DNA of 64,000 nucleotides from Nitrospinaceae bacterium (GTDB lineage Bacteria; UBA8248). Both the position numbers and the translations under genes were made by a program. Every line of letters begins with the position of its first letter. The stretch's first letter is position 1. Of the stretch, positions 30,592 through 46,460 are shown one piece after another. The stretch lies in the NCBI GenBank assembly GCA_018669005.1, contig JABJAL010000072.1:231877-295876 (forward strand), written 5' to 3'. The notes below the pieces were generated by a model. The model was not told where the DNA came from and searched no databases. It saw only the letters and a list, made by a program, of their open reading frames with translations.

Positions 30592-31536
30592 CTATAAAAT
30601 GGGTTTTATTTCTCCAGAAATTTGCATGTCTGCGAGCTTGAGTGTTCGGTAGATGAAATCGTTGAGTGGTGTAGGGATGCCTATTTCTTTGCCCATTCTA
30701 GAGACAGTTCCGCATAGCGCGTCAATTTCGAGGCGGCGGCCCGCTTCAAGATCGTGACAGAGGCTACCTTTGCTGGCCGGATTTTGCTCGTCGAGAAAAC
30801 GAAATCGGTTTTCAACGACATCTTCCGGCAAATCTACTCCCTGCGCCCTCCCAACTTCATATACCTCACACATGATCTCGTGCATCATCTCATGGGTTTC
30901 TGGAGAGGCTACTATTACCCCGAGTGGAGAACGGGTGAGGGCTGTCATGCCGCTGACAGCACAGATGAAGATGAATTTTGTCCAGAGTTCGACTTGAATG
31001 TCATCAGATAACTCTGCGTTGATTCCAGCGGATCTCATGGTAGAAAGAATTTCCTCGCCTCTTTTGCTGGGCCCGCCTCCCATCTCTCCAAAGACGATGC
31101 GTTTAGGCCCTCCTATCTGTTGGATCAGGCCCGGGGCCCCAAGTGCGGTGAAAATATAAGCAGCTCCGCCCATGACACGATTTTGCCCGTAGGTCTTGGC
31201 AAGATGTTCTTCGTTGTCCACGCCATTTTGGAGATTGATGATGACTGTGGTGTCGCCGACCATGGGTGCGATAGCTGGGATGGTCTTTTCGTTTGCGACG
31301 GTTTTCACACAGTAAAGTATGATATCACAAGGCCCAGCCTCGTTGGGATTGTCTGTGGCGAAAACTTTTTCGAGCTTGAAGAATTCTGAATCCACAGACT
31401 CAATACGAAGTCCATAGCTTCGAATGGCTTCGAGGTGTTTTCCTCGAGCGATGAATCGAATATCTTCTCCGGCACGGGATAGCAAGCCCCCAAAATATCC
31501 CCCTACACCGCCGGTTGCCATAATTCCGAATCGCAA
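30592..31536 (-). CDS. panE: 2-dehydropantoate 2-reductase (ketopantoate reductase)
   Basis: N-terminal GxGxxG (IMATGGVGGYFGG) ApbA fold and the C-terminal ApbA_C domain. Confidence 0.65.
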   Translation of the reverse strand: MRFGIMATGGVGGYFGGLLSRAGEDIRFIARGKHLEAIRSYGLRIESVDSEFFKLEKVFATDNPNEAGPCDIILYCVKTVANEKTIPAIAPMVGDTTVIINLQNGVDNEEHLAKTYGQNRVMGGAAYIFTALGAPGLIQQIGGPKRIVFGEMGGGPSKRGEEILSTMRSAGINAELSDDIQVELWTKFIFICAVSGMTALTRSPLGVIVASPETHEMMHEIMCEVYEVGRAQGVDLPEDVVENRFRFLDEQNPASKGSLCHDLEAGRRLEIDALCGTVSRMGKEIGIPTPLNDFIYRTLKLADMQISGEIKPIL

Positions 31537-31611
31537 GGGCTAATCTCCATTAGTTGTTTATGAAGTAAAGAATGTCTTGGGTTTATTTTTTTGCTGGATG
31601 GCGCTATCTAA

Positions 31612-32724
31612 TTAGTTGGTGTCGTTTTTCTCAATTAGATGGGATGTCGTGGCCTCTCTCACTCTCTCTTCCCCGTTACTATTCACGTTAGCATGGGTGT
31701 TAGTTAATCCGTTAGTCTGATGCATAACTGGCTCTTCGGAGACATTATCACCCATCTTCAAATTTGTTTCCCCTTTGATAGGAATCACATCGGAGTCTGG
31801 ACCTTGATTTTCAAAGTCGAGGTTCAGATTAAACTCTTCAGGTTTAGGCAAGTCTGTTAGGCTCTTGAACCCAAAGTGTTCAAGGAATTGTAGTGTGGTG
31901 CCATAAACGATTGGTTTGCCGACTACATCTCGGCGCCCGAGAATTCGGATCATTTTACGTTCCAAAAGGGTATTGATTGTGCCGCCACAATCCACCCTTC
32001 GAATCTCTTCAACTTCTAACTTCGTTATGGGTTGCTTGTATGCAATTATCGCTAGTGTTTCTAGCCCGGCATTTGATACGCGCCATTTTTTCTCTTGCTT
32101 AAAAAAGCGGCGTAACCAATGGGAGAACTCCATTCTGGTACACATGCGGAAGCCTTCTGCCACTTCGGTGATTTGGAGGGTGCGATTCTTGTATTCTTCC
32201 TTTAGCTCTGCGAGGAGTTTGCGTACGACTTTAGCATTTATATTTTCAACACCTCTGAAAACCATTGATATGTCACGGGGGCGTAATGTTTCATGTGTGG
32301 CGAAGAGTAAGGTTTCGATAATCCTCTTCGCCTCATCGAGATTTACGAGTAGGGGTGTATTTGGGGCACTGCCGGTACCGCCAAATTTTTCGACTTTACT
32401 TTCTGAGATATCAATTCTGAACGAAGAGGATTCAACGATTTCGTTGCTGTGTTTTTTTCTTTTTGTTGTGGTTGCGTTGATTTTAAACGTTGGAGATTCG
32501 ATGCTTCTGTCTATTTGTTCTTCTTTTAATTCGAGTGGGACCATCATTTCTTGATTTTCATCTTCTTCTTTGTCGAGTCCAAAGATGGTATTTTCTGATT
32601 CGCCGGAAATCTGGTGTTCTTCAAGTGTGCGGGCGGCTGTTTCTGAAGAAGAAGTGTTGTCACCTTCTAGCTGGAAAACGGATTCCTGTAGTTCTTTGCC
32701 TTTTTCGTATCTTAAATTATTCAT
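31612..32724 (-). CDS. scpB: Segregation and condensation protein B with ~130-aa acidic N-terminal extension
   Basis: Winged-helix ScpB core (IETLLFATHETL...GLETLAIIAYKQPITKLEVEEIRRVD...LLERKMI); lies downstream of scpA with a 4-nt overlap. Confidence 0.6.
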   Translation of the reverse strand: MNNLRYEKGKELQESVFQLEGDNTSSSETAARTLEEHQISGESENTIFGLDKEEDENQEMMVPLELKEEQIDRSIESPTFKINATTTKRKKHSNEIVESSSFRIDISESKVEKFGGTGSAPNTPLLVNLDEAKRIIETLLFATHETLRPRDISMVFRGVENINAKVVRKLLAELKEEYKNRTLQITEVAEGFRMCTRMEFSHWLRRFFKQEKKWRVSNAGLETLAIIAYKQPITKLEVEEIRRVDCGGTINTLLERKMIRILGRRDVVGKPIVYGTTLQFLEHFGFKSLTDLPKPEEFNLNLDFENQGPDSDVIPIKGETNLKMGDNVSEEPVMHQTNGLTNTHANVNSNGEERVREATTSHLIEKNDTN

Positions 32725-33715
32725 CGTCTTTTATCGCCTTGTGGACTCTAATTTCTCCATAAATTTCTGATTGGGTTGCAATAATTAGGCTTAGCCGTAT
32801 TAACTCGAGAATTGCCAGTAATGTAACAACAATAATGAGTCTCTTTGGGCCGTTACCTTTGAATAGATTTTCAAATTCAACTCCTTCAGGCCCGGAATTT
32901 TCAAGCATGTCTAGTACATGAGTCTGGCGGTCAGCCACTTCGAGTTCATCGACTTCAACGAGGTGAATGCCTTCCTCTCCAGCCTCTTCAATCATCTTTT
33001 GGATGGCGCTGATAAGATCAAAAACGGTCACTTCCAAAGGGGGAGGGTTTTCGAAGTCTTCTGGATTTAGAATGATTCCGTCGCCGTTGCCTCCTCTCGG
33101 GAAGATGGCTGACTGTACTTCCTCTGCGTCACGGAAAATTTGGCTTATACCCTTGAATTTTTGATACTCAAGCAATTGACGTTGGAGTTCTAGTCGAAGA
33201 GCTTCAGGGTCCTCTTCGCTTTCCTCCGCACCTCCTTGCTGGGGGAGTAATGTACGACTTTTGATATAAACGAGCCAGGAGGCCATTACGAGATAATCTG
33301 AGGCGATGTTAATGTTCAGGAGCTTCATCATTTCGATGTGTCTTAGGTACTGCTCGGTGATGAATGCGATAGGAATGTCGTATATATCTAATTTATGTTC
33401 GCGGATGAGATGTAACAGAAGTTCTAGTGGCCCTTCAAATACGTCTAGTTTGATGCTGAATTGATCGTTGACGTTTTTTTGTGTGTGAGGGGGCTGAAAT
33501 TCTTCTTTTAATTTATCAAGATTCTGAGGTTCCAAAGCGGTGACTTGGGGAGGTGAGACGATCTCCCAAGAATAGGGTGAACCCGCAGAGCGGTCGCTCC
33601 CTAGATTCAAATCTTTAAGATTCATTGTTTCGATAAGGTCGTTGTTAGGTTCTGAGGCAGATAAACTCTTCTCAGATTCTGACATGTTTGAGTGCTCTGG
33701 CTTAGCTGACGCCAT
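32717..33715 (-). CDS. scpA: Segregation and condensation protein A
   Basis: FEGPLELLLHLIREHKLDIYDIPIAFITEQYL, the kleisin ScpA N-terminal motif. Confidence 0.65.
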   Translation of the reverse strand: MASAKPEHSNMSESEKSLSASEPNNDLIETMNLKDLNLGSDRSAGSPYSWEIVSPPQVTALEPQNLDKLKEEFQPPHTQKNVNDQFSIKLDVFEGPLELLLHLIREHKLDIYDIPIAFITEQYLRHIEMMKLLNINIASDYLVMASWLVYIKSRTLLPQQGGAEESEEDPEALRLELQRQLLEYQKFKGISQIFRDAEEVQSAIFPRGGNGDGIILNPEDFENPPPLEVTVFDLISAIQKMIEEAGEEGIHLVEVDELEVADRQTHVLDMLENSGPEGVEFENLFKGNGPKRLIIVVTLLAILELIRLSLIIATQSEIYGEIRVHKAIKDDE

Positions 33716-33953
33716 GGGGAAGGTCCCCTGTAAGGCGAATGGTGGGCGGAACAGTGATTCTTAATTCATTTAACTATCAGGGTGTAGGTACCCTTCATTT
33801 CCCCCAATACAACTTGGTACCGTAAAAAATACCACAACGCTTGTCAATAGAAAGGATTGCAAGAGGGGCAAAAGTAGATTCGTTTAAAATGTTGGATGTG
33901 TGGTTATAGGGAGTGATAAATTTGATTGTAAAGGAGGGGTTGATTGGGGGGGG

Positions 33954-34322
33954 GTGAATGTGGCGAAAATTATTGAAAGGCATAAGAAAAAAGGCCGACT
34001 GTATGGTCGTGTTTTGGCGCATCAGATTAAGGATGGTGATAGGGTTTACATGAGGTGGTGTTTGCCTTATCTCCATGAAAAAGCCCAGGCCGTTCGGAGC
34101 CAGACAGAGTTATTTGACCTTTCCTCTCGAGGAGGGCTTGATTTTGTGTTTTTAAGTGGCGCTCAGATTGACACCCATAGTGATGTCAATCGGTTGTTTA
34201 TCGGTGATCCAGCGAATCTCGAAGTTCGTTTTCTTGGCGGGGCAGGTGGTTGCCGCTATTTTACCGACAGCGAAGCGGGTGGTTCTCTGTCGGCCTGTTC
34301 ACGATTAAAGAATTTTTCCTGA
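33954..34322 (+). CDS. Hypothetical protein (~122 aa)
   Basis: AGGAGGGG RBS upstream of GTG 33954; no family recognised; low-GC context. Confidence 0.3.
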   Translation: MNVAKIIERHKKKGRLYGRVLAHQIKDGDRVYMRWCLPYLHEKAQAVRSQTELFDLSSRGGLDFVFLSGAQIDTHSDVNRLFIGDPANLEVRFLGGAGGCRYFTDSEAGGSLSACSRLKNFS

Positions 34323-34338
34323 ATGTAGTGAATATATA

Positions 34339-34581
34339 ATGACTTCTGGTCGTGTGGATAGGGTGGTCATTCCAATTTACATCTTCAAAAATGGTAATGA
34401 TGAGCACCTCTGTCCAGAGTTGCTGCACGCAGATGTGACATCTAAAATGGTTCAGAATGCTACGGGATTTCATGTTGAAGTTTTAAATGTAATGCTCGAA
34501 ACGGTTGATCTATCATATGAAGAGCCTTTGGCTTTGGAATCGGTAGATCATTGCGGAGTCCATTTCGGTGAATTTTTTTAG
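34339..34581 (+). CDS. Hypothetical protein (80 aa)
   Basis: ORF directly downstream of the previous gene; no family. Confidence 0.2.
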   Translation: MTSGRVDRVVIPIYIFKNGNDEHLCPELLHADVTSKMVQNATGFHVEVLNVMLETVDLSYEEPLALESVDHCGVHFGEFF

Positions 34582-34604
34582 TCTTATTCCCTCTGGATTA
34601 GTGA

Positions 34605-35537
34605 ATGGTAGAATTTCAGTTTGATGTAGTTGGAGTCGGTCTCAACTCGGTAGATCTCTTGTGCCAAGTTAAGCATTTTCCAGTATTTAACACAAAAGGT
34701 TCTCTGGATGATATAAGCCGTCAGGGTGGCGGACAGGTGGCGACGGCTTTGGCCGCTTTGTCTCGTCTTGAAATGAAAACAGCATTTATTGGTGTTGTAG
34801 GTGATGATGAGAATGGTGTTTTTTCGATATCCTCTCTTAAAGCGGATGGTGTTAATGTCGAGGGCGTGGTTGTGCGGCCTGATTTCGCAACTCAATTTGC
34901 AATCATCATTGTTCAATCCGACGGTGACGATGAAGAAAGAGGAGGACGAACGATTCTATGGCATCGTGAGGTTATTCTTCGGCCTGAGGATGTCAGAGAG
35001 GATATCGTGAAGTCAGCTCGGATGATTCACGTTGACGGCCACTCTCTTGAGGCAGAAATAAAAGTTGCTAAGTGGGCCCAGGAAGAGGGGATTCTTGTTT
35101 CATTTGACGCAGAGCGTGTTGTGCCGGGAGTTGAAAAATTGATTTCGCTAACGGATTATCTGGTTGCGTCCGAGGGTTTTCCGTCGGAATTCTCTGGGAG
35201 TGCAAATGTGAAAGAGGGGCTGAAGAAAATTTGTTCTCTGGGGCCACGTGTAGCTGCCATGACAAAAGGTCCCCGGGGTGTCGTCGCTTTTGATGGAGAG
35301 CGATTTTACAATTCACCTGGATTTCCAATTAATGTGGTTGATACCACTGGGGCTGGTGATGTGTTTCATGCTGGGTTTATCTATGGGGTTTTACAAGGAT
35401 TTGAACTGTCTCGAACTCTGCGGTTTGCTAATGCTCTTGCGGCTCTGAGTTGCAGAGAACTAGGTGGTCGTGCTGGTCTTTGTTGTCTTGAGGAAGTGGA
35501 TAGCTTTATTGCGAAATTTCCTGATTTGGAGGCTTAA
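34605..35537 (+). CDS. PfkB-family carbohydrate kinase (ribokinase-like)
   Basis: N-terminal GG motif (VVGVGLNSVDL), C-terminal DTTGAGD anion-hole motif. Confidence 0.65.
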   Translation: MVEFQFDVVGVGLNSVDLLCQVKHFPVFNTKGSLDDISRQGGGQVATALAALSRLEMKTAFIGVVGDDENGVFSISSLKADGVNVEGVVVRPDFATQFAIIIVQSDGDDEERGGRTILWHREVILRPEDVREDIVKSARMIHVDGHSLEAEIKVAKWAQEEGILVSFDAERVVPGVEKLISLTDYLVASEGFPSEFSGSANVKEGLKKICSLGPRVAAMTKGPRGVVAFDGERFYNSPGFPINVVDTTGAGDVFHAGFIYGVLQGFELSRTLRFANALAALSCRELGGRAGLCCLEEVDSFIAKFPDLEA

Positions 35538-37522: not shown

Positions 37523-38002
37523 ATGGACACCATGACAATTTTCGGCCTGCAATTCGCTTTAAGCCTCCTCGCCTGGGGCGCGGCGGCCCGGTGGCTCGCA
37601 GTCTCTCATCTTGAAAAATTATCCGCTCATGAGGCGCTCTCGTGGCTCATTCTGCCGCACACTTTCCGGCACTTAGGATTAGTCTTCCTCGTCCCCGGCG
37701 TCGTGGCGCGGCCGCTCCCCGAAGCATTTGCCAATCCCGCCGCCTATGGCGATCTCCTGGCGGGCCTCCTCGCGCTCGCCGCCTTTGCCGCCCTCCGCAG
37801 CGGCAAATCCTTCGCGCGCCCCCTCGCCTGGCTTTTCAACATCGTCGGGACAATGGACCTGCTCTATGCCGTCACCATTGGCACCCTCAACAACGCCGCC
37901 CCCGCCATGGGCGCCACATGGTACATCCCCACTTTTGTCGTGCCCTTGCTGCTCATCACGCATGGAATGATTTTTGTCAGGTTGGTGAGGGGGGAGGGGT
38001 GA
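37523..38002 (+). CDS. Hypothetical 4-5 TM membrane protein
   Basis: AAAGGAGA RBS; hydrophobic profile; no family assigned. Confidence 0.45.
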   Translation: MDTMTIFGLQFALSLLAWGAAARWLAVSHLEKLSAHEALSWLILPHTFRHLGLVFLVPGVVARPLPEAFANPAAYGDLLAGLLALAAFAALRSGKSFARPLAWLFNIVGTMDLLYAVTIGTLNNAAPAMGATWYIPTFVVPLLLITHGMIFVRLVRGEG

Positions 38003-38193
38003 TATGGTCGACTAATGGACTGGATAATTTCGTGCAAATCGTGAATACTTTCTATGTATTCACTCACTAAATTTTCCGCCCGATATGGCCGATATGACAT
38101 CAAAAGAGTGATTTGCGCTGAAGATGGATTTTCGCTATAATTTCGTCTATCAGTATTTCCTTTAATGTCGAGTAGTGTCAGGAGAGTAAATTC

Positions 38194-39441
38194 GTGGGGC
38201 GTCCAATCGGAATTGATCTTTTTGCTGGGGCAGGAGGCTTAAGCCTAGGTTTCGAGCAGGCGGGGTTTAAAATTGCCGCTGCTGTCGATATTGACCCAAT
38301 TCATTGTGCAGCACATGAGTACAATTTCCCCAATTGTAAAACTATTTGCAAAGATGTCGCTGAATTGACGGGAGAAGAAATTCGAAAAATTTCTGGTGTC
38401 AAAGAAAAAAAAATAGATGTAGTTTTCGGAGGAGCGCCTTGTCAGGGTTTTTCGCTGATTGGTAAAAGAGCATTAAACGACCCGCGTAATCGTCTCGTTA
38501 ATCATTTTGTTCGATTGGTACTTGAGCTAGCCCCTTCTTATTTTCTATTTGAGAATGTCAAAGGATTAACAATCGGCAAGCATCGCCAATTTCTCGAAGA
38601 AATAATTTCAACGTTCGAAAAAAATGGTTATTCGGTTGAGGGTAATTATCGTGTGTTAAATGCATCTAATTACGGAGTGCCGCAGAAGAGAGAACGGTTA
38701 TTTCTATTCGGGTGTAGAAAAAATCTTAAAATTCCTATATATCCAAAAAAATTGAGCGAAATTTCAATCTCCGATGCGTTGGCAGATTTGCCAGAAGTTG
38801 AAAAATTTACAGAACTGCTTGATAGGGATTGGGTGGAGACAATTCTTGGAAGTCCATCAAAATATGCTGAAAAATTACGAGAAGCTGAATTTGCTTCTTG
38901 TAATTATGGATACAGTCGAAAATATAATCCCAATCTACTAACATCAAGCGCAAGAACAACTCATACGCCACTTTCTCGAAAACGATTTGCCGAAACGCCA
39001 CACGGAAAAACAGAACCAGTTAGTAGATTTTTCAAATTAGATCCGCAGGGTGTTTGTAATACCTTGCGGGCTGGGACGGCAAGTGATCGGGGAGCTTTCA
39101 CTTCTCCAAGACCTATCCATCCCTTTACTCCTCGATGTATTACAGTTCGCGAGGCAGCCCGAATACACAGCTACCCTGATTGGTTTCGATTTCATGTCAC
39201 CAAGTGGCATGGGTTTAGGCAGATTGGAAATTCGGTCCCACCTCTTTTGGCCCAAGCGGTCGCTATGGAAATTTTGAGGGCTCTTGAAAAAAAACCTTCA
39301 AAGCCCAAAAAAATTTTAAGGTTAGGCGATTCATTGTTGCTTAATTTGTCAATGTCGCAAGCGGCTTATTATTATGGCGTGTCTCCAAATGTGATTCCAA
39401 AACGTACCAGATCGGCCCGTCCAAAGGTGATTTGTGCCTAA
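38194..39441 (+). CDS. DNA (cytosine-5)-methyltransferase
   Basis: Motif I (IDLFAGAGGLSLGF), motif IV PC (GGAPCQGFS), motif VI ENV (ENVKGL), motif VIII and a C-terminal target-recognition domain. GTG start with AGGAGAG RBS; GC ~40%. Confidence 0.8.
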   Translation: MGRPIGIDLFAGAGGLSLGFEQAGFKIAAAVDIDPIHCAAHEYNFPNCKTICKDVAELTGEEIRKISGVKEKKIDVVFGGAPCQGFSLIGKRALNDPRNRLVNHFVRLVLELAPSYFLFENVKGLTIGKHRQFLEEIISTFEKNGYSVEGNYRVLNASNYGVPQKRERLFLFGCRKNLKIPIYPKKLSEISISDALADLPEVEKFTELLDRDWVETILGSPSKYAEKLREAEFASCNYGYSRKYNPNLLTSSARTTHTPLSRKRFAETPHGKTEPVSRFFKLDPQGVCNTLRAGTASDRGAFTSPRPIHPFTPRCITVREAARIHSYPDWFRFHVTKWHGFRQIGNSVPPLLAQAVAMEILRALEKKPSKPKKILRLGDSLLLNLSMSQAAYYYGVSPNVIPKRTRSARPKVICA

Positions 39442-40234
39442 AAAGCGAACTGGTCTTTATGATGTGATAATAGAGCAAATTTTCAAGAATCATTTCACGG
39501 CGGGTATTTCTTCATTCGATTTTGATAGGGACGAAATTGAAAAAGTTGCAGAGAAAATTGAAGCAAACCTTCCAAAAAATGTAGGCGATGTGGTTTATTC
39601 CTTTCGTTACCGTAGGGCACTTCCTAAATCTATTCAAGATACTGCATCGAATGATAATGAATGGGTCATCGAAGGAGCAGATAGAGCCAAATATACATTT
39701 AAATTGGTGAAAATTAATCGAATTGTACCCAACCAAAATTTAATTGCTATAAAAATTCCAGATGCAACTCCAGAAATAATTTCATCTTATGCGCTGTCAG
39801 ATGAGCAAGCCCTGTTGGCAAAGGTCAGATACAATAGATTAGTAGATATATTTTTGGGGCTAACAACATATTCTTTGCAGAATCATCTGAGAACTACTGT
39901 TAAAAGAGTTCAAATCGAGATAGACGAAATTTATGTCGGCATAGATCGAGAAGGATGCCACTACATAATACCTATTCAAGCGAAGGGAGGAAAAGATCAA
40001 CTTTCAGTGGTTCAAACAAAACAGGATATATCTTGTTGTACCGATAAGTTTCCAAATTTAATTTGCCGAGCACTATCAAGTCAATTTATGACAGAAAATC
40101 TTATTGCTATTTTCGAATTGACTGTGCAGGATGATCAGATAAGAATTGTTGATGAAAAACATTATCGATTAGTCCCTTCGGAGCAAATATCTTCAGAAGA
40201 TATGAAAGCATACAGGTCACACACTTCAGGGTAA
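39434..40234 (+). CDS. Hypothetical protein, candidate type II restriction endonuclease partner of the C5-MTase
   Basis: Overlaps the MTase by 8 nt, shares its low GC, and has a possible PD-(D/E)xK-like element (VGIDREG...IPIQAKGG). No family otherwise recognised. Confidence 0.35.
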   Translation: MPKKRTGLYDVIIEQIFKNHFTAGISSFDFDRDEIEKVAEKIEANLPKNVGDVVYSFRYRRALPKSIQDTASNDNEWVIEGADRAKYTFKLVKINRIVPNQNLIAIKIPDATPEIISSYALSDEQALLAKVRYNRLVDIFLGLTTYSLQNHLRTTVKRVQIEIDEIYVGIDREGCHYIIPIQAKGGKDQLSVVQTKQDISCCTDKFPNLICRALSSQFMTENLIAIFELTVQDDQIRIVDEKHYRLVPSEQISSEDMKAYRSHTSG

Positions 40235-40260
40235 ATATTTTTTCAACCAAGACCCCCATC

Positions 40261-40330
40261 TCACTTCCCCCATATGACCAAGAACACCCTAACAACCGAA
40301 ATCATCTCCCCCCAGACAACGCGGGGCGAC
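40261..40330 (-). pseudogene. 3' remnant of a fourth EamA/DMT transporter paralog
   Basis: Positions 40261-40330 are ~75% identical to the 3' end of the DMT gene at 41315 (ttacttcccccatacgacgagaaacacc...cagacgacgcggg), but the frame is broken. Lies at the right edge of the low-GC R-M island. Confidence 0.4.
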
Positions 40331-41314: not shown

Positions 41315-42193
41315 TTACTTCCCCCATACGACGAGAAACACCCCGGCAACAGATAGCAGCCCGCCCCAGACGACGCGGGAGGTGATCTGTTCGAGTTGTC
41401 GGTAGAAAAGCCAGGAGGTGAAAATCATCAAGAGGACCGAGATGCGGGTGACGGGCACCACCTGCACGAGATCCCCGTGCTGGACGGCAGTCCAGAAGAA
41501 CAGGGCGGCCAGGGCGTTGAACACCGCCCCCACCACAATAAAGAGAACGGCCTGCCGCCCAAAGGATTTGGGTATTCCCTCGCCGGTAAAGGGCATGATG
41601 GCGATCATCGTCACGACCGAAAAAGTGTTGGAAATGCTCATGCCGAGCGTGGCCGAATCGATCCAGCCATATCCGTATTTGCGCAGCAGGTGGGAGAGCC
41701 CTTGTAGAAATGCCGCCACCACCGGGATGAGGTAGTAAGACATGGGGATTTTCTTGAGCTCAATTTCTCCTTTGTTGACCAGGAGAATTGAGCCAATCAT
41801 GATCGCCGCCGTTCCCGCGCCGATGGCCATGTTCAGATTCTCCCCCAGAAGGGCGATGGCCAGCCCCGTTGACCAGATGAGGCTTGTTTGAAGAATGATC
41901 GCCGTCCGGGCGAGGCCAAGCTCTTTCATTGATAAAAATTGAAGGTAGCGCCCGCCCACACCGTTTATGATTCCGATGCCCACGAACCAGGCAACCCCCT
42001 GAAGGGGCCAATGCTCCACCTGGCCTGAATAGAAATAATAACCCCAGATGAGGACCAGCGAGATTGAGCCCGAGATCAGAGCTGTTGTGTTTGCGCCGAA
42101 ATGGAGCAGTACGCTTCGGTAGAGTGTTCGCGCTATCGAGATGTTGACCGCGGATAAAAGTGCCAACAGGCTGGGGTGTATTGAATCGAGCAA
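41315..42193 (-). CDS. EamA/DMT superfamily transporter, tandem paralog 1 (292 aa)
   Basis: 10-TM DMT profile; ~70% identical to the next two genes. Confidence 0.6.
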   Translation of the reverse strand: MLDSIHPSLLALLSAVNISIARTLYRSVLLHFGANTTALISGSISLVLIWGYYFYSGQVEHWPLQGVAWFVGIGIINGVGGRYLQFLSMKELGLARTAIILQTSLIWSTGLAIALLGENLNMAIGAGTAAIMIGSILLVNKGEIELKKIPMSYYLIPVVAAFLQGLSHLLRKYGYGWIDSATLGMSISNTFSVVTMIAIMPFTGEGIPKSFGRQAVLFIVVGAVFNALAALFFWTAVQHGDLVQVVPVTRISVLLMIFTSWLFYRQLEQITSRVVWGGLLSVAGVFLVVWGK

Positions 42194-42291
42194 ATCGCCA
42201 CCAGAGAGGATAGAAACTAAAAAACTATTATTGCATGGAACGAAAAATAGAGCGATGAGGGGAGTCTGAATTTCTTAATTGGCGGGCGGCT

Positions 42292-43170
42292 TTATTTTCC
42301 CCAAACGATGAGGAACACCCCGGCAACGGAGAGCACCCCCCCGTAAACGACGCGGGCCGTGACGCTTTCTTGTTTTCGGAAAAAAAGCCATGAAGTGAAA
42401 ATCATCAAGAGGACCGAGATTCTGGTGATGGGGACGACCTGCACGAGTTCTCCCCGCCTGACAGCCGTCCAGAAAACTATCGCGGACATAAAGTTGAACA
42501 GCGCCCCTCCCACGATGCAGAGTATGGGCCGCCGCTCCAAGGTTTTTGGGATGCGCTCGTTCGTGAACGGCATGATGGCGAGCATCGTCATGACCGAAAC
42601 GGTGTTGGAGATACTCAGGCCGAAGGTGGCCGAATCAATCCATGCGTAACCGTATTTACGTAGCAGGTGAGATAGCCCGAGAAAAAACGCCGCCGCCAGC
42701 GGGATAAGATAGTAGGTGAGGGGAATCTTCTTAGGCTCCGAGCCTCCCTTTTTGACCAGGAGAATGGAGCCGATCATGATTGCGGCTGTTCCCGCGCCGA
42801 TAGCCAGGCTCAAGCGCTCGCCCAAAAGAATGATGGCCAGCCCCGTGGACCAGATGATGCTTGTCTGCATCAGGATCGATGTCCGGGCAAGGCCGATTTC
42901 TTTTATCGAATAAAAGCTGAGATAGCGACCGCCCAGACCACCCAATATCCCGACAACCATGAACAAGGCAATCCCCTGAAGGGGGTAGTTGTCCACCGTT
43001 CCCGTGTACAAATAAAAGCTCCATACGCAGACAAGCGTAATCGAGCCCGAGGCCAGAGCCGTCGTGCCGGCACCTAGGCGGAGCATCGCGCCCCGGTAGA
43101 GGGTCCGCGCCATAGAGATGTTGAACGCGGAGATCAGCGCCAACATGTTGGGATGAATGGTATCGAGCAA
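42292..43170 (-). CDS. EamA/DMT superfamily transporter, tandem paralog 2 (292 aa)
   Basis: Same length and conserved blocks as paralogs 1 and 3; a ~99-bp conserved spacer separates the copies. Confidence 0.6.
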   Translation of the reverse strand: MLDTIHPNMLALISAFNISMARTLYRGAMLRLGAGTTALASGSITLVCVWSFYLYTGTVDNYPLQGIALFMVVGILGGLGGRYLSFYSIKEIGLARTSILMQTSIIWSTGLAIILLGERLSLAIGAGTAAIMIGSILLVKKGGSEPKKIPLTYYLIPLAAAFFLGLSHLLRKYGYAWIDSATFGLSISNTVSVMTMLAIMPFTNERIPKTLERRPILCIVGGALFNFMSAIVFWTAVRRGELVQVVPITRISVLLMIFTSWLFFRKQESVTARVVYGGVLSVAGVFLIVWGK

Positions 43171-43269
43171 ATCGCCACCAGAGAGGAGAGAAACTAAAGA
43201 TCTATTATTGCATGTAACGAAAAACAGATCGATGAAGACTGTCAGGGTTTCTAGAAATGGCGGGCGGTT

Positions 43270-44148
43270 TTATTTTCCCCAAACGACGAGAAACACCCCG
43301 GCAACGGAGAGTACCCCCCCGTAAACGACGCGGGCGGTGACTCTTTCTTGTTTTCGAAAAAACAGCCAGGAAGTGAAAATCATCATGAGGACCGAGATCC
43401 GGGTGATGGGAACGACCTGCACGATTTCTCCTCGTTGTACGGCTGTCCAAAAGAACAGGGCGGACAAGGCGTTGAACACCGCCCCCGCCACAATGAAGAA
43501 AATAGGGCGCCACCCCCAAGTTTTGGGGATGCCCTCATTCGTGAAAGGCAAGATGGCGATCATCGTCATGACCGAAACGGTGTTGGAGATGCTCAGGCCG
43601 AAGGTGGCCGAATCAATCCAGTTGTAGCCGTATTTGCGGAGCAGGTGAGATAGGCCCAGCAAAAAAGCCGCCACCACGGGAATGAAGTAGTAGGAGAAAG
43701 GTACTTCTTTAAGCTCTGAGCCCCCTTTGTAGACCAGGAGAATGGAGCCAATCATGATTGCGGCTGTTCCCGCGCCGATAGTCAGGTTCACCTGCTCGCC
43801 CAGGAGGACGATGGCCAGCCCCGTGGACCAGATAATGCTCGTTTGCATCAGAACCGAGGTTCGGGCGAGGCCGAGCTCTTTCATCGAGAAAAAATTAAGG
43901 TAGCGCCCGCCCACGCCTCCCAGCATTCCGACGATGACGAACCAGGCAATCCCTTGAAGGGGCCAGCTGTCCACCGTGCCGGTATAAAAATAATAGCTCC
44001 AGATAAGGCCCAGCGAAATTATCCCTGAGGCCAGTGCCGTCGTGCCGGCACCGAGGCGAAGCAGGACGCTTCGATAGAACGTTCGCGCTATCGCGATGTT
44101 GAGCGCGGCTAACAGTGCCAACGCTGTGGGATGAAATGAATCGAGCAA
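43270..44148 (-). CDS. EamA/DMT superfamily transporter, tandem paralog 3 (292 aa)
   Basis: As above. Confidence 0.6.
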   Translation of the reverse strand: MLDSFHPTALALLAALNIAIARTFYRSVLLRLGAGTTALASGIISLGLIWSYYFYTGTVDSWPLQGIAWFVIVGMLGGVGGRYLNFFSMKELGLARTSVLMQTSIIWSTGLAIVLLGEQVNLTIGAGTAAIMIGSILLVYKGGSELKEVPFSYYFIPVVAAFLLGLSHLLRKYGYNWIDSATFGLSISNTVSVMTMIAILPFTNEGIPKTWGWRPIFFIVAGAVFNALSALFFWTAVQRGEIVQVVPITRISVLMMIFTSWLFFRKQERVTARVVYGGVLSVAGVFLVVWGK

Positions 44149-44401
44149 ATTGCCACCAGGGAATAAGGCAAGAAAAGAACGCGACGTCTATTATCGCACG
44201 GAATGCACTATAGGGCGATGGGCGCGCCGCACTTCCAGCTCTTTAAAAGGGCTCTACAGTTGCCTCCACCCGGTTTTCTTTACCCCGGATATGTTGGATA
44301 ATTCCCGCCTCTGTACACAATCGGACCTCCGGGCAGGGTTTGGGCCCGGTGCAATTTCCTTTTGTCTGATTCACGTCTTATTTTTAACAAGGAGAGTCAT
44401 A

Positions 44402-45415
44402 GTGATTATCGATCCCCACGCACACATTTCGCCCGAAAGTTTTATTGATGACGTTCGCAAAAAACGCTTCGGCAAGTCAGTAACGATCAGAAAGGGCAAG
44501 CCCTGGGAGTTTCTCGTCACGCGCACGAAGATCCTCGGCAAGGAGCGGGTCCACGTAAACCCGCTGCCCAAAGAAACCTACGATGTGAGTCTTCGCCTGA
44601 AGGGCATGAAGAAGCAGAACGTCGATATGCAGATTCTCTCGGTCGTGCCGCCGATGACCTACTACGCGCTCGACAAGGGGCTGAACAAAGAGCTCTCGGC
44701 CTCGCTCAACGAATCCTTGCTTAAAATCGTGGACGAGAATCCGGATAAATTCCGCTGCATGGCGCAGATTCCTCTCCAGGATCCCAAGGCGGCGGCCAAG
44801 GAGCTAGAGCGCGCGGTCAAAAAGGGCCACCTCGGCTGCCAGATTGGCTCGAACGTCGCGGGAACCAACCTTGATGACAAAAAGCTCGACCCCGTATGGC
44901 GTATGGCGCAAAAACTCGATGTGCCCATTTTCATCCATCCCACAGACGTGATGGGCGTGAATGATCGCCTCAAGGACTATTACTTGCGCAACTTCATCGG
45001 CAACCCGCTCGACACCACCATCGCGGCGGCCTGTCTCATCTTCGGCGGGGTGTTTGACCGCTTCCCGAAGGTTAAATTTCTGCTCTCCCACGTGGGTGGC
45101 TTCACCCCCTGGATCAGAGGCCGCTGGCAGCACGGCTACGGCGAGCGCCAGGAGCCCAAGGTCAACAAGGCCAAGGCACCCGAGAACTACTTCAAAAAGT
45201 TCTACTACGACACGATCATTCACAATGCCGATTCATTTGAGTTTGCCGTTAAGTCGCTGGGCGTGAACCGCATCCTCTACGGGACGGATTACCCGTTCGA
45301 CATGGGCAACCTGAGCCGGGCCGAGAAGATTCCGGGCCTCTCGCGTTTTTCGAAAAAAGATCAGCAGAAAATGCTCGTGGGCAACGTGAAGAAGCTCTAT
45401 AAACTAAAAGTGTGA
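44402..45415 (+). CDS. Amidohydrolase-2 family (PF04909-like; ACMSD/LigW-type metal-dependent hydrolase/decarboxylase)
   Basis: IDPHAHI N-terminal His pair, HVGG and GTDYP metal-site motifs. GTG start at 44402 with AAGGAGAG RBS; the ORF-track N-terminal extension is rejected. Confidence 0.65.
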   Translation: MIIDPHAHISPESFIDDVRKKRFGKSVTIRKGKPWEFLVTRTKILGKERVHVNPLPKETYDVSLRLKGMKKQNVDMQILSVVPPMTYYALDKGLNKELSASLNESLLKIVDENPDKFRCMAQIPLQDPKAAAKELERAVKKGHLGCQIGSNVAGTNLDDKKLDPVWRMAQKLDVPIFIHPTDVMGVNDRLKDYYLRNFIGNPLDTTIAAACLIFGGVFDRFPKVKFLLSHVGGFTPWIRGRWQHGYGERQEPKVNKAKAPENYFKKFYYDTIIHNADSFEFAVKSLGVNRILYGTDYPFDMGNLSRAEKIPGLSRFSKKDQQKMLVGNVKKLYKLKV

Positions 45416-45452
45416 ATTTTAAGACCAAAACGAACATTAAAAGGAGAATTAG

Positions 45453-46460
45453 ATGGCCATTGATCCACATACACATATTCTGCCGATGGGGTTTCTGGAC
45501 GACCTGCGCAAGGGCCGCCTCGGCAAGGCTGTAAGCATCGAGAAGGATGGCGATAATGAGTTCATGGCGTTCGAGGGCACCATCTTCGGCAAGGAGCGCC
45601 GCTGGCATAACAATCTCAAGCCGCCTTATTACGATGTGGACATCCGCCTCGGGGCGATGAAGAACATGGGGGTCGAGCGCCAGGTGCTCTCGGTCTCGCC
45701 CTTCATGACGCTCTATGCCCTCGACGCCGGGTTGAATAAAGAGCTTTCGGCCTCGATCAACGACGGTTTGACCGAGTTGGCAAACAAGTACCCCGATCAG
45801 CTCTCCTGCATGGCGCAGGTGCCGCTCCAGGATCCCGATGCCGCGGTGGCCGAGCTCGACCGGGCTGTGAAAAATGGCCACATCGGCGTGCAGATCGCAG
45901 CCAACGTCGCGGGGGAGAATCTCGACGCGCCAGAGCTCGATGTTTTCTGGGCCAAAGCGGTCGCGCTCGATATTCCGATTTTCATCCATCCCCAAGGCCA
46001 GGCGGCGGCCCCTGAGCGGCTCGGCGATTACTACATGAGAAACTTCATCGGCAACCCGCTCGACACGACCATTGCTGTCTCGTGCCTAATCTTCGGCGGG
46101 GTGCTCGACCGTTTCCCGGACATTAAATTCTATCTCTCCCACGTGGGTGGCTTCGTTCCCTGGATCAGAGGCCGCTGGCAGCACGGCTACGGCGAGCGCG
46201 ATGAGCCCAAGGTAAACGGCGCCAAAGATCCCGAACAGTATTTCGGCAAATTTTACTACGACACGATTATTCATAATGCCGATGCCTTCGTGTATGCCGT
46301 TGAAACGCTGGGAGCCGACCGCATTCTCTACGGGACGGACTATCCGGCCGATATGGGCTACCACCAGCCGGCCAAGGATATTCCTGGCCTCTCGCGGTTG
46401 TCAGCCGAGGATCAGGAGAAAATCCTCATCGGCAACGCGAAGAAGCTCTATAAGCTCTAG
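45453..46460 (+). CDS. Amidohydrolase-2 family protein, tandem paralog
   Basis: ~65% identical to the preceding gene (IDPHTHI, HVGGF.PWIRGRWQHGYGER, GTDYP). Confidence 0.65.
   Translation: MAIDPHTHILPMGFLDDLRKGRLGKAVSIEKDGDNEFMAFEGTIFGKERRWHNNLKPPYYDVDIRLGAMKNMGVERQVLSVSPFMTLYALDAGLNKELSASINDGLTELANKYPDQLSCMAQVPLQDPDAAVAELDRAVKNGHIGVQIAANVAGENLDAPELDVFWAKAVALDIPIFIHPQGQAAAPERLGDYYMRNFIGNPLDTTIAVSCLIFGGVLDRFPDIKFYLSHVGGFVPWIRGRWQHGYGERDEPKVNGAKDPEQYFGKFYYDTIIHNADAFVYAVETLGADRILYGTDYPADMGYHQPAKDIPGLSRLSAEDQEKILIGNAKKLYKL

What the first reader, a model, noticed from the sequence alone, without database searches (positions are those of the whole stretch)
39434..40234. Uncharacterised 266-aa ORF coupled to the C5-MTase: possible novel restriction endonuclease
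Translational coupling (8-nt overlap) and shared low GC suggest it is the R partner. It has no recognisable nuclease family except a weak PD-(D/E)xK-like element (GIDREG...IPIQAKGG). Type II REases are notoriously sequence-diverse, so this may be a new specificity or a new family.
Basis: inference. Interest (0 to 1): 0.5.

Follow-up and report, generated by a model that had tools for sequence, protein, structure and literature searches.

The report
Ordinary Type II restriction enzyme gene
The 266-aa ORF is almost certainly the restriction endonuclease partner of the upstream cytosine-5 methyltransferase, but it belongs to a very large family already catalogued as restriction enzymes, so it is not a new kind of nuclease.

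The parts
38000..40330 (.). Low-GC island holding only the two R-M genes; no mobility genes and no convincing terminal repeats
   Evidence: GC 0.34-0.47 vs flanks 0.55-0.68; repeat search found only short chance-level matches; the flanking genes are an unannotated membrane-like ORF and an alpha/beta hydrolase
38113..38141 (+). Possible operon promoter, TTGCGC-17 nt-TATAAT (read directly from the sequence; below the scan tool's threshold)
   Evidence: Sequence; not listed by the consensus scan because the -35 hexamer matches only 3 of 6 positions. Inference only.
38180..38184 (+). Shine-Dalgarno AGGAG, 9 nt before the MTase GTG start
   Evidence: Sequence
38194..39441 (+). Cytosine-5 DNA methyltransferase (415 aa), the protective partner; it includes a C-terminal extension of about 50 aa with sub-threshold HTH hits
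   Evidence: PF00145 at 2.8e-71 and TIGR00675 at 3.2e-60; PADLOC MTase_II PDLC03326 at 3.1e-173; PDB 3g7u at 1e-79; the recognition-proximal TRD (residues 261-310) is conserved at 0.69-0.85 across 78 orthologues; HTH_psq hits at E = 8e-4 to 0.06 in 4/8 orthologues
39346..39375 (+). Promoter-like site inside the 3' end of the MTase gene (TTGTCA-18-TATTAT, 10/12), about 60 nt upstream of the REase start; function untested
   Evidence: 10 sites found vs 5.6 +/- 2.3 expected in shuffles, so weak evidence
39434..39441 (+). 8-nt overlap (GTGCCTAA) between the REase start codon and the MTase stop codon; a translational-coupling junction
   Evidence: the same ATGnCTAA/ATGnCTGA 8-nt overlap occurs in 48/82 loci, including an E. 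coli plasmid and Chamaesiphon
39434..40234 (+). Type II restriction endonuclease (266 aa)
   Evidence: PADLOC PDLC03404 REase_II at 8.9e-122, full length; homologues; synteny with the MTase; fold
39455..39760 (+). N-terminal winged-helix domain (residues ~8-109; H-S-H-H-S-S). The putative recognition helix 51-60 carries invariant N49, G51, D52, Y55, R58 and R60
39800..40183 (+). C-terminal PD-(D/E)xK nuclease domain (residues ~123-250)
39923..39985 (+). Predicted catalytic hairpin: D164 (GAC, 39923-39925), Q182 (CAA, 39977-39979), K184 (AAG, 39983-39985), with E162, E165, D188 and helix residue E124 as further invariant acidic residues
   Evidence: 100% invariant E162, D164, E165, Q182 and D188; 99.6% K184 and E124, in 260 sequences. 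Strands 159-170 and 176-182 form the beta2-beta3 hairpin. The catalytic roles are inferred, not shown.

Best explanation
The ORF encodes the restriction endonuclease of a two-gene Type II restriction-modification module that was acquired horizontally by a Nitrospinaceae genome. The upstream C5-methyltransferase methylates a short palindromic site on host DNA. The endonuclease most likely acts as a homodimer. It would read the same site with an N-terminal winged-helix domain and cut unmethylated DNA with a C-terminal Mg2+-dependent PD-(D/E)xK domain (predicted core D164...Q182-x-K184). The M->R order and the 8-nt start/stop overlap couple R translation to prior M translation, so protection comes before restriction. 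Shown: homology to a catalogued REase family, conserved linkage to MTases, and the fold class. Inferred: the catalytic residues, the dimeric state and the coupling mechanism. The recognition site is probably CGATCG (PvuI/XorII/RshI type; about 0.55), but that is unproven.
For: There is a full-length match to PADLOC REase_II PDLC03404 (E = 8.9e-122); PADLOC's R-M models cite REBASE. An orthologous C5-MTase lies directly upstream on the same strand in 78/80 species loci, and the 8-nt overlap recurs in 48/82 loci. The same pair sits on about 57 small mobilizable ColE1-type plasmids of Klebsiella, Salmonella and E. coli. In L073 the REase (PDLC03404 at 7e-130) instead overlaps an N6_N4_Mtase with an SPPY motif. 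Fusion proteins exist with both C5 and N6_N4 MTases. So the nuclease always travels with some protective MTase. The AF2 model (pLDDT 79, pTM 0.73) gives PD-(D/E)xK and winged-helix neighbours. The invariant residues are D164, Q182 and K184. For CGATCG: family member AFY94201.1/K9UIC4 in C. minutus PCC 6605 lies directly downstream of a C5 MTase at 53% of the chromosome. That fits Cha3188 (MTase) and Cha3189 (RE), which Elhai lists as putative CGATCG-specific from REBASE. Elhai also notes that CGATCG MTases exist in both m5C and m4C forms, which matches the two partner classes seen here.
Confidence: 0.88

Rival explanations
1. It is a genuine Type II restriction enzyme, but its site is not CGATCG. 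It could be, for example, CTGCAG (AplI-like), CTCGAG or an uncatalogued palindrome.
For: Prokka's best Swiss-Prot match for the TRD-containing half of the plasmid orthologue is M.AplI, and AplI cuts CTGCAG. CTCGAG is as depleted as CGATCG in carrier loci and is the most depleted 6-mer in the window. DmtC/M.Ssp6803I orthology was not demonstrated.
Against: The AplI label is only a best hit within a small curated set, and the full-length protein is labelled HaeIII by the same pipeline. Palindrome depletion is generic here. The only curated, REBASE-based assignment I could tie to a family member is CGATCG. KcmA (MTCGAK) is a different gene; its primers are absent from all loci.
Confidence: 0.4
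2. It is not a restriction enzyme but another nuclease that travels with 5mC methyltransferases. It could be, for example, a deamination-mismatch repair nuclease (a functional analogue of Vsr) or a methyl-directed Type IV enzyme.
For: The nearest structural neighbours are repair and recombination nucleases (NucS/EndoMS, Hjc, Cas4) rather than solved REases. There is no biochemical evidence.
Against: A separate bona fide Vsr gene flanks the pair in 37/83 loci, so this ORF is not the Vsr substitute. It also pairs with and fuses to amino-MTases, whose products do not deaminate to T. Small plasmids consisting of little more than M + this ORF + replication/mobilisation functions are typical of R-M modules. 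A methyl-directed nuclease co-translated with a methylase of the same cell would be suicidal. The PADLOC REase model matches over its full length.
Confidence: 0.05
3. The gene is a decaying or inactive remnant, and the MTase acts as an orphan.
For: It uses a GTG start. There is no Vsr and there are no other defence genes in the island. Solitary MTases derived from R-M systems are common (for example the cyanobacterial DmtC family).
Against: The ORF is full length and aligns end to end with homologues. It retains every one of the 67 positions that are at least 99% conserved in the family. The identical protein occurs on 21 contigs from several MAGs. GTG or TTG starts occur in 16/82 orthologues.
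Confidence: 0.05

Closest known systems
PvuI / XorII / RshI-type CGATCG restriction-modification systems (REBASE); m5C MTases M.XorII, M.Rsp241I, DmtC/M.AvaVIII, M.Ssp6803I
   Same: A Type II two-gene module with an m5C MTase. A family member in C. minutus PCC 6605 coincides by position and gene order with the pair that Elhai lists (from REBASE) as CGATCG MTase + CGATCG RE. CGATCG protection is known in both m5C and m4C forms, matching the two MTase classes found with this REase. Vsr genes are often adjacent; from memory, a vsr homologue was reported beside M.XorII.
   Different: No sequence of a biochemically proven PvuI, XorII or RshI endonuclease was available to compare, so membership is inferred. 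The solitary cyanobacterial CGATCG MTases did not appear among the closest relatives of the R-M-linked MTase.
SdaI and DpnI (REases combining a winged-helix DNA-binding domain with a PD-(D/E)xK catalytic domain)
   Different: There is no detectable sequence similarity. DpnI has the opposite domain order and is methyl-dependent. SdaI did not appear among the top structural hits. That SdaI has wH at the N-terminus is from my memory of the literature and was not tested here.
HinP1I-type active-site variant (S-D-X18-Q-X-K)
   Same: A Gln replaces the acidic residue of (D/E)xK: here D164-X17-Q182-A-K184, invariant in 260 sequences.
   Different: This resemblance is recalled from memory. No sequence or structural match to HinP1I was found, so it is an analogy, not membership.
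Plasmid-borne enterobacterial Type II R-M modules on small ColE1-type plasmids
   Same: Orthologues (57% REase identity, 61% MTase identity) with the same 8-nt overlap sit on 4.2-5.4 kb mobilizable plasmids of Klebsiella, Salmonella, E. coli and Citrobacter.
   Different: In the window the module is a chromosomal 2.3-kb low-GC island with no replication or mobilisation genes.

Membership tests
Type II restriction endonuclease of an R-M system | Encoded next to a DNA methyltransferase, with the linkage conserved across genomes | tested here: met
   78/80 loci have an orthologous C5 MTase directly upstream on the same strand. One locus has an N6_N4 MTase instead. Fusions exist with both MTase classes.
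Type II restriction endonuclease of an R-M system | Sequence membership in a family catalogued as REases | tested here: met
   PADLOC PDLC03404 REase_II, E = 8.9e-122, residues 6-261 on profile positions 3-259 of 260
Type II restriction endonuclease of an R-M system | A nuclease catalytic fold with conserved active-site residues | tested here: met
Type II restriction endonuclease of an R-M system | Site-specific cleavage of unmethylated DNA that is blocked by the cognate methylation | not testable with these tools
   Needs expression and a cleavage assay
PvuI/XorII/RshI-type CGATCG isoschizomers | Sequence orthology to an endonuclease with proven CGATCG cleavage | not testable with these tools
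   No REBASE access. The R. sphaeroides record is not in the collections, and no Rhodobacter plasmid carries a homologue.
PvuI/XorII/RshI-type CGATCG isoschizomers | A family member carries a curated (REBASE-based) CGATCG prediction | tested here: inconclusive
   The C. minutus PCC 6605 pair at 3.347 Mb (53.3% of the chromosome; expected locus tag about 3170, given that tags run to at least 5913) fits Cha3188/Cha3189 in gene order and adjacency. No accession or sequence match could be made.
PvuI/XorII/RshI-type CGATCG isoschizomers | The cognate MTase is orthologous to proven m5C CGATCG MTases (M.Ssp6803I, DmtC, M.XorII) | tested here: inconclusive
   The top 120 hits of the Snowella R-M MTase (at least 66% identity) include no Synechocystis or PCC 7120 protein. 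More distant orthology is not excluded.
PvuI/XorII/RshI-type CGATCG isoschizomers | Selective avoidance of CGATCG in carrier genomes | tested here: inconclusive
   CGATCG O/E is 0.54 in the pooled loci and 6 observed vs 24 expected in the window, but about 12 palindromes have O/E of 0.48-0.70.
C-protein-controlled R-M systems | A small HTH controller gene within the module | tested here: not met
   The island contains no ORF of 50 aa or more on the + strand other than M and R. No recurrent third gene other than vsr was found in 83 loci.
Vsr-type very-short-patch repair endonuclease (rival) | Vsr fold and motif (FVDGCFWHG), about 140 aa | tested here: not met
   The ORF lacks the motif. Separate Vsr genes accompany the pair in 37/83 loci.

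The most novel reading that the evidence does not exclude
The family could recognise a site other than CGATCG. Independently of that, it is a structurally uncharacterised REase lineage: an N-terminal winged helix plus a PD-(D/E)xK domain with an invariant D...QxK core, and no solved relative. Its MTase may autoregulate the operon through a C-terminal mini-HTH in place of a C-protein. A structure with DNA would then show a new way of reading a 6-bp palindrome.
Probability: 0.25. Interest if true: 0.3.

Novelty: new member of a known kind. Interest (0 to 1): 0.12.

Why it matters
It matters little for discovery. This is one more copy of a widespread R-M module, and an identical protein is already deposited. 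The practical value is in annotation. A family with thousands of members, labelled only 'endonuclease' or 'hypothetical protein' and absent from Pfam and NCBIfam, can be confidently named a Type II restriction endonuclease with a wH + PD-(D/E)xK architecture, probably of PvuI type. It also marks a horizontally acquired defence island in a Nitrospinaceae genome. The same module on small Klebsiella and Salmonella plasmids may affect plasmid stability and DNA uptake in clinical strains.

Tried and rejected
1. KcmA (MTCGAK, a 5mC Type II R-M MTase of K. pneumoniae, PMC9684165) looked promising because CTCGAG is depleted. Its cloning primers match none of the 83 loci, and KcmA starts MKKVSC rather than M(G/T)RPI, so it is a different gene.
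2. Palindrome-avoidance statistics (maximal-order Markov expectation, 80 carrier loci plus the window): CGATCG and CTCGAG rank at the top, but a dozen palindromes are equally depleted, so the result is unspecific.
3. Orthology to M.Ssp6803I/DmtC via a search with the Snowella MTase: no named CGATCG MTase appeared in the top 120.
4. The Prokka label 'M.AplI' (CTGCAG) on plasmid orthologues is only a best hit in a small database and is not evidence of specificity.
5. Fetching R. sphaeroides 2.4.1 (RshI/M.Rsp241I): the record is not in the collections.
6. Accession and locus-tag literature searches to calibrate Cha6605 numbering found no accession pairs.
7. RIMS-seq2 supplements are not held, and the MspJI-seq paper has no sequence link.
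8. The AFDB50 fold library was unavailable.
9. Flanking repeats as integration scars: none convincing.
10. Phage records and complete E. coli genomes: no copies.
11. PDB sequence search: only a chance GTP cyclohydrolase hit at E = 0.59.

Full report
OBSERVATION. It runs from 39434 to 40234 on the + strand, is 266 aa long and starts with GTG. It lies directly after a 415-aa ORF at 38194..39441. The junction reads AAG GTG ATT TGT GCC TAA. The REase GTG is at 39434 and the MTase TAA ends at 39441, so the overlap is 8 nt. An SD-like AAGGTGA lies just upstream. GC is 0.34-0.47 from about 38000 to 40330 and 0.55-0.68 on both sides. This makes a 2.3-kb low-GC island that contains only these two genes. 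There are no convincing terminal repeats and no mobility genes. The flanking genes are an unannotated membrane-like ORF and an alpha/beta hydrolase.

WHAT THE UPSTREAM GENE IS. It is a canonical C5 DNA methyltransferase: PF00145 at 2.8e-71, TIGR00675 at 3.2e-60, PADLOC MTase_II PDLC03326 at 3.1e-173, and PDB 3g7u at 1e-79.

WHAT THE ORF IS BY SEQUENCE. PADLOC's model PDLC03404, 'Type II restriction enzyme', matches residues 6-261 against profile positions 3-259 of 260 at E = 8.9e-122. PADLOC cites REBASE for its R-M content. The large protein database returns at least 8,000 homologues. The listed ones are 61-68% identical over the full length and come from many phyla; several are named 'endonuclease'. 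An identical protein is on record from Nitrospinaceae MAGs (MBT3351791.1 and others). The exhaustive search finds 342 clusters at 50% identity with E <= 1e-30. So this is a big, tight, previously catalogued family, not a new one.

CONTEXT ELSEWHERE. Over 547 species genomes encode a relative.
- In 78 of the 80 loci fetched, an orthologue of the window's MTase (53-69% identity) lies immediately upstream on the same strand. In one locus it is divergent, and in one it is absent.
- The same 8-nt overlap, of the form ATGnCTAA or ATGnCTGA, occurs in 48 of 82 loci. Nearly all the others have junctions between -10 and +14 nt. The overlap is seen in an E. coli plasmid, in a Chamaesiphon MAG and in C. 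minutus PCC 6605.
- The pair also sits on about 57 small (4.2-5.4 kb) mobilizable ColE1-type plasmids of Klebsiella, Salmonella, E. coli and Citrobacter.
- The exception is informative. In L073 the REase (PDLC03404 at 7e-130) overlaps a quite different upstream gene, an N6_N4_Mtase (PF01555) with DPFCGTGTT and TSPPY motifs.
- Among the cluster representatives there are 686-735-aa proteins in which the REase is fused to a C5 MTase (P0413, P0447) or to an N6_N4 MTase (P0414, P0416).
- A nuclease that always travels with some DNA methyltransferase, of either chemical class, behaves as a restriction enzyme should.
- Vsr genes flank the pair in 37 of 83 sources, as V-M-R or M-R-V, though not in the window. 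This argues against the ORF itself being a deamination-repair nuclease. No other gene recurs.

STRUCTURE. AlphaFold2 with a 25-sequence alignment gave pLDDT 79 and pTM 0.73. Residues 113-128 are disordered in the model. Residues 8-109 have the H-S-H-H-S-S order of a winged helix. Residues 123-250 have the alpha-beta-beta-beta-alpha-beta pattern of PD-(D/E)xK nucleases.
- Foldseek independently ranks ACE1/Cas4, EndoMS/NucS, SSO0001 and AdnAB first, with probability up to 0.97.
- No solved restriction enzyme is a close relative, so the scores support the fold class only.

ACTIVE SITE. In a 260-member alignment, E162, D164, E165, Q182, D188 and D138 are 100% invariant, and K184 and E124 are 99.6%. 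Strands 159-170 and 176-182 form the beta2-beta3 hairpin. This places D164 opposite Q182 and E162 opposite K184. I therefore propose D164...Q182-x-K184 as the core, with E124, E162, E165 or D188 as extra metal ligands. This is an inference; I could not read the model coordinates. The putative recognition helix (51-60) carries invariant N49, G51, D52, Y55, R58 and R60.

SPECIFICITY. This is the weak point.
(a) Palindrome avoidance in the carrier loci puts CGATCG (O/E 0.54) and CTCGAG (0.48) at the top, and CGATCG is 6 observed vs 24 expected in the window. However, about twelve palindromes fall between 0.48 and 0.70, so the test is unspecific.
(b) A K. pneumoniae 5mC enzyme, KcmA (MTCGAK), was excluded by primer matching.
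(c) Prokka labels the TRD half of the plasmid MTase 'M.AplI' (CTGCAG), but that is only a best hit in a small set.
(d) Elhai (2015, PMC4390886) took specificities from REBASE. For Chamaesiphon minutus PCC 6605 he lists Cha3188 as the putative CGATCG MTase and the adjacent Cha3189 as the putative CGATCG restriction enzyme. My family has exactly one member from that strain in the hit list, AFY94201.1/K9UIC4. It lies directly downstream of a 426-aa C5 MTase, again with an 8-nt overlap, at 3.347 Mb, which is 53.3% of the chromosome. Locus tags run to at least 5913, so the expected tag is about 3170. The window REase is 59% identical to this protein. The recognition-proximal part of the TRD is as conserved across the MTase family as the catalytic motifs, which suggests one specificity throughout the family.
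(e) Elhai also notes that CGATCG MTases exist in both m5C and m4C forms, matching the two partner classes I found. m5C CGATCG methylation with a PvuI isoschizomer (RshI) is documented in R. sphaeroides.
Against this, a search with the Snowella R-M MTase did not retrieve M.Ssp6803I or DmtC among its 120 best hits, and I could not compare any proven PvuI, XorII or RshI sequence. I put CGATCG at about 0.55.

MECHANISM. This is a compact Type II R-M operon.
- Transcription may start from a TTGCGC-17-TATAAT element at 38113-38141. I read this directly from the sequence; it is below the scan threshold. An internal promoter-like site lies at 39346-39375.
- The MTase has its own AGGAG-N9-GTG start. 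The REase start overlaps the MTase stop, so ribosomes finishing M can re-initiate on R. This ties R synthesis to prior M synthesis (inference from the conserved junction).
- No C-protein gene is present.
- The MTase carries a conserved C-terminal extension of about 50 aa that gives sub-threshold HTH_psq hits in 4 of 8 orthologues. This might be an autoregulatory DNA-binding tail, but it is only a hint.

COMPARISON AND NOVELTY. The ORF works like, and by every test I could run is, a Type IIP restriction endonuclease. It is a new member of a known, REBASE/PADLOC-catalogued family. It is probably a PvuI-type isoschizomer, and it has a wH + PD-(D/E)xK architecture reminiscent of SdaI and DpnI, and a D...QxK core reminiscent of HinP1I. 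The last two comparisons are from memory and were not tested. The family lacks a Pfam or NCBIfam model and a solved structure. That is a gap in annotation, not a discovery. No phage record and no complete E. coli genome carries it.

VERDICT. The claim of novelty is not. Interest is low.

Noticed in passing
L073:3213-5401: The same REase family (PDLC03404 at 7e-130) is paired, with a 16-nt overlap, with an N6_N4-type amino-methyltransferase (PF01555, SPPY motif) instead of a C5 MTase. Database representatives P0414 and P0416 are fusions of this MTase type with the REase, and P0413 and P0447 are C5-MTase fusions.
   Followed up: yes
L017:6789-7217, L051:6801-7229 and 35 other loci: Vsr (very-short-patch repair) genes with the FVDGCFWHG motif flank the M-R pair in 37 of 83 sources. 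They lie either just upstream of M or just downstream of R. The window module has none.
   Followed up: yes
window 39290-39441 (MTase residues ~366-415): There is a conserved C-terminal extension of the MTase (...LGDxxLLxxxMSxAAxYxGVxxxxIxxRxR). It gives sub-threshold HTH_psq hits in 4 of 8 orthologues (E = 8e-4 to 0.06) and may be an autoregulatory DNA-binding tail in a system that lacks a C-protein.
   Followed up: partly
window 41315-44148 (- strand): There are three tandem paralogous 292-aa EamA-family transporter genes (41315..42193, 42292..43170, 43270..44148).
   Followed up: no
window 44150-46460 (+ strand): There are two adjacent paralogous Amidohydro_2 (PF04909) genes (44150..45415, 45453..46460).
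   Followed up: no
window ~31000-35000: A second stretch of lowered GC (0.42-0.47 vs about 0.56) may be another acquired segment. It was not examined.
   Followed up: no
L081, L082 (plasmids NZ_CP083635.1, NZ_OQ821088.1): Orthologues of the whole module, with the same 8-nt overlap, are carried by about 57 small ColE1-type mobilizable plasmids of Klebsiella, Salmonella, E. coli and Citrobacter. One of these is a 15.7-kb plasmid that also bears Tn4401 (KPC context). In several records the REase is annotated only as 'hypothetical protein'.
   Followed up: partly
window 38041-38063: A perfect 8-bp inverted repeat, GTGAATAC-N7-GTATTCAC, lies between the upstream membrane-protein gene and the R-M promoter region. 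It could be a terminator stem or an operator, and it was not analysed.
   Followed up: no
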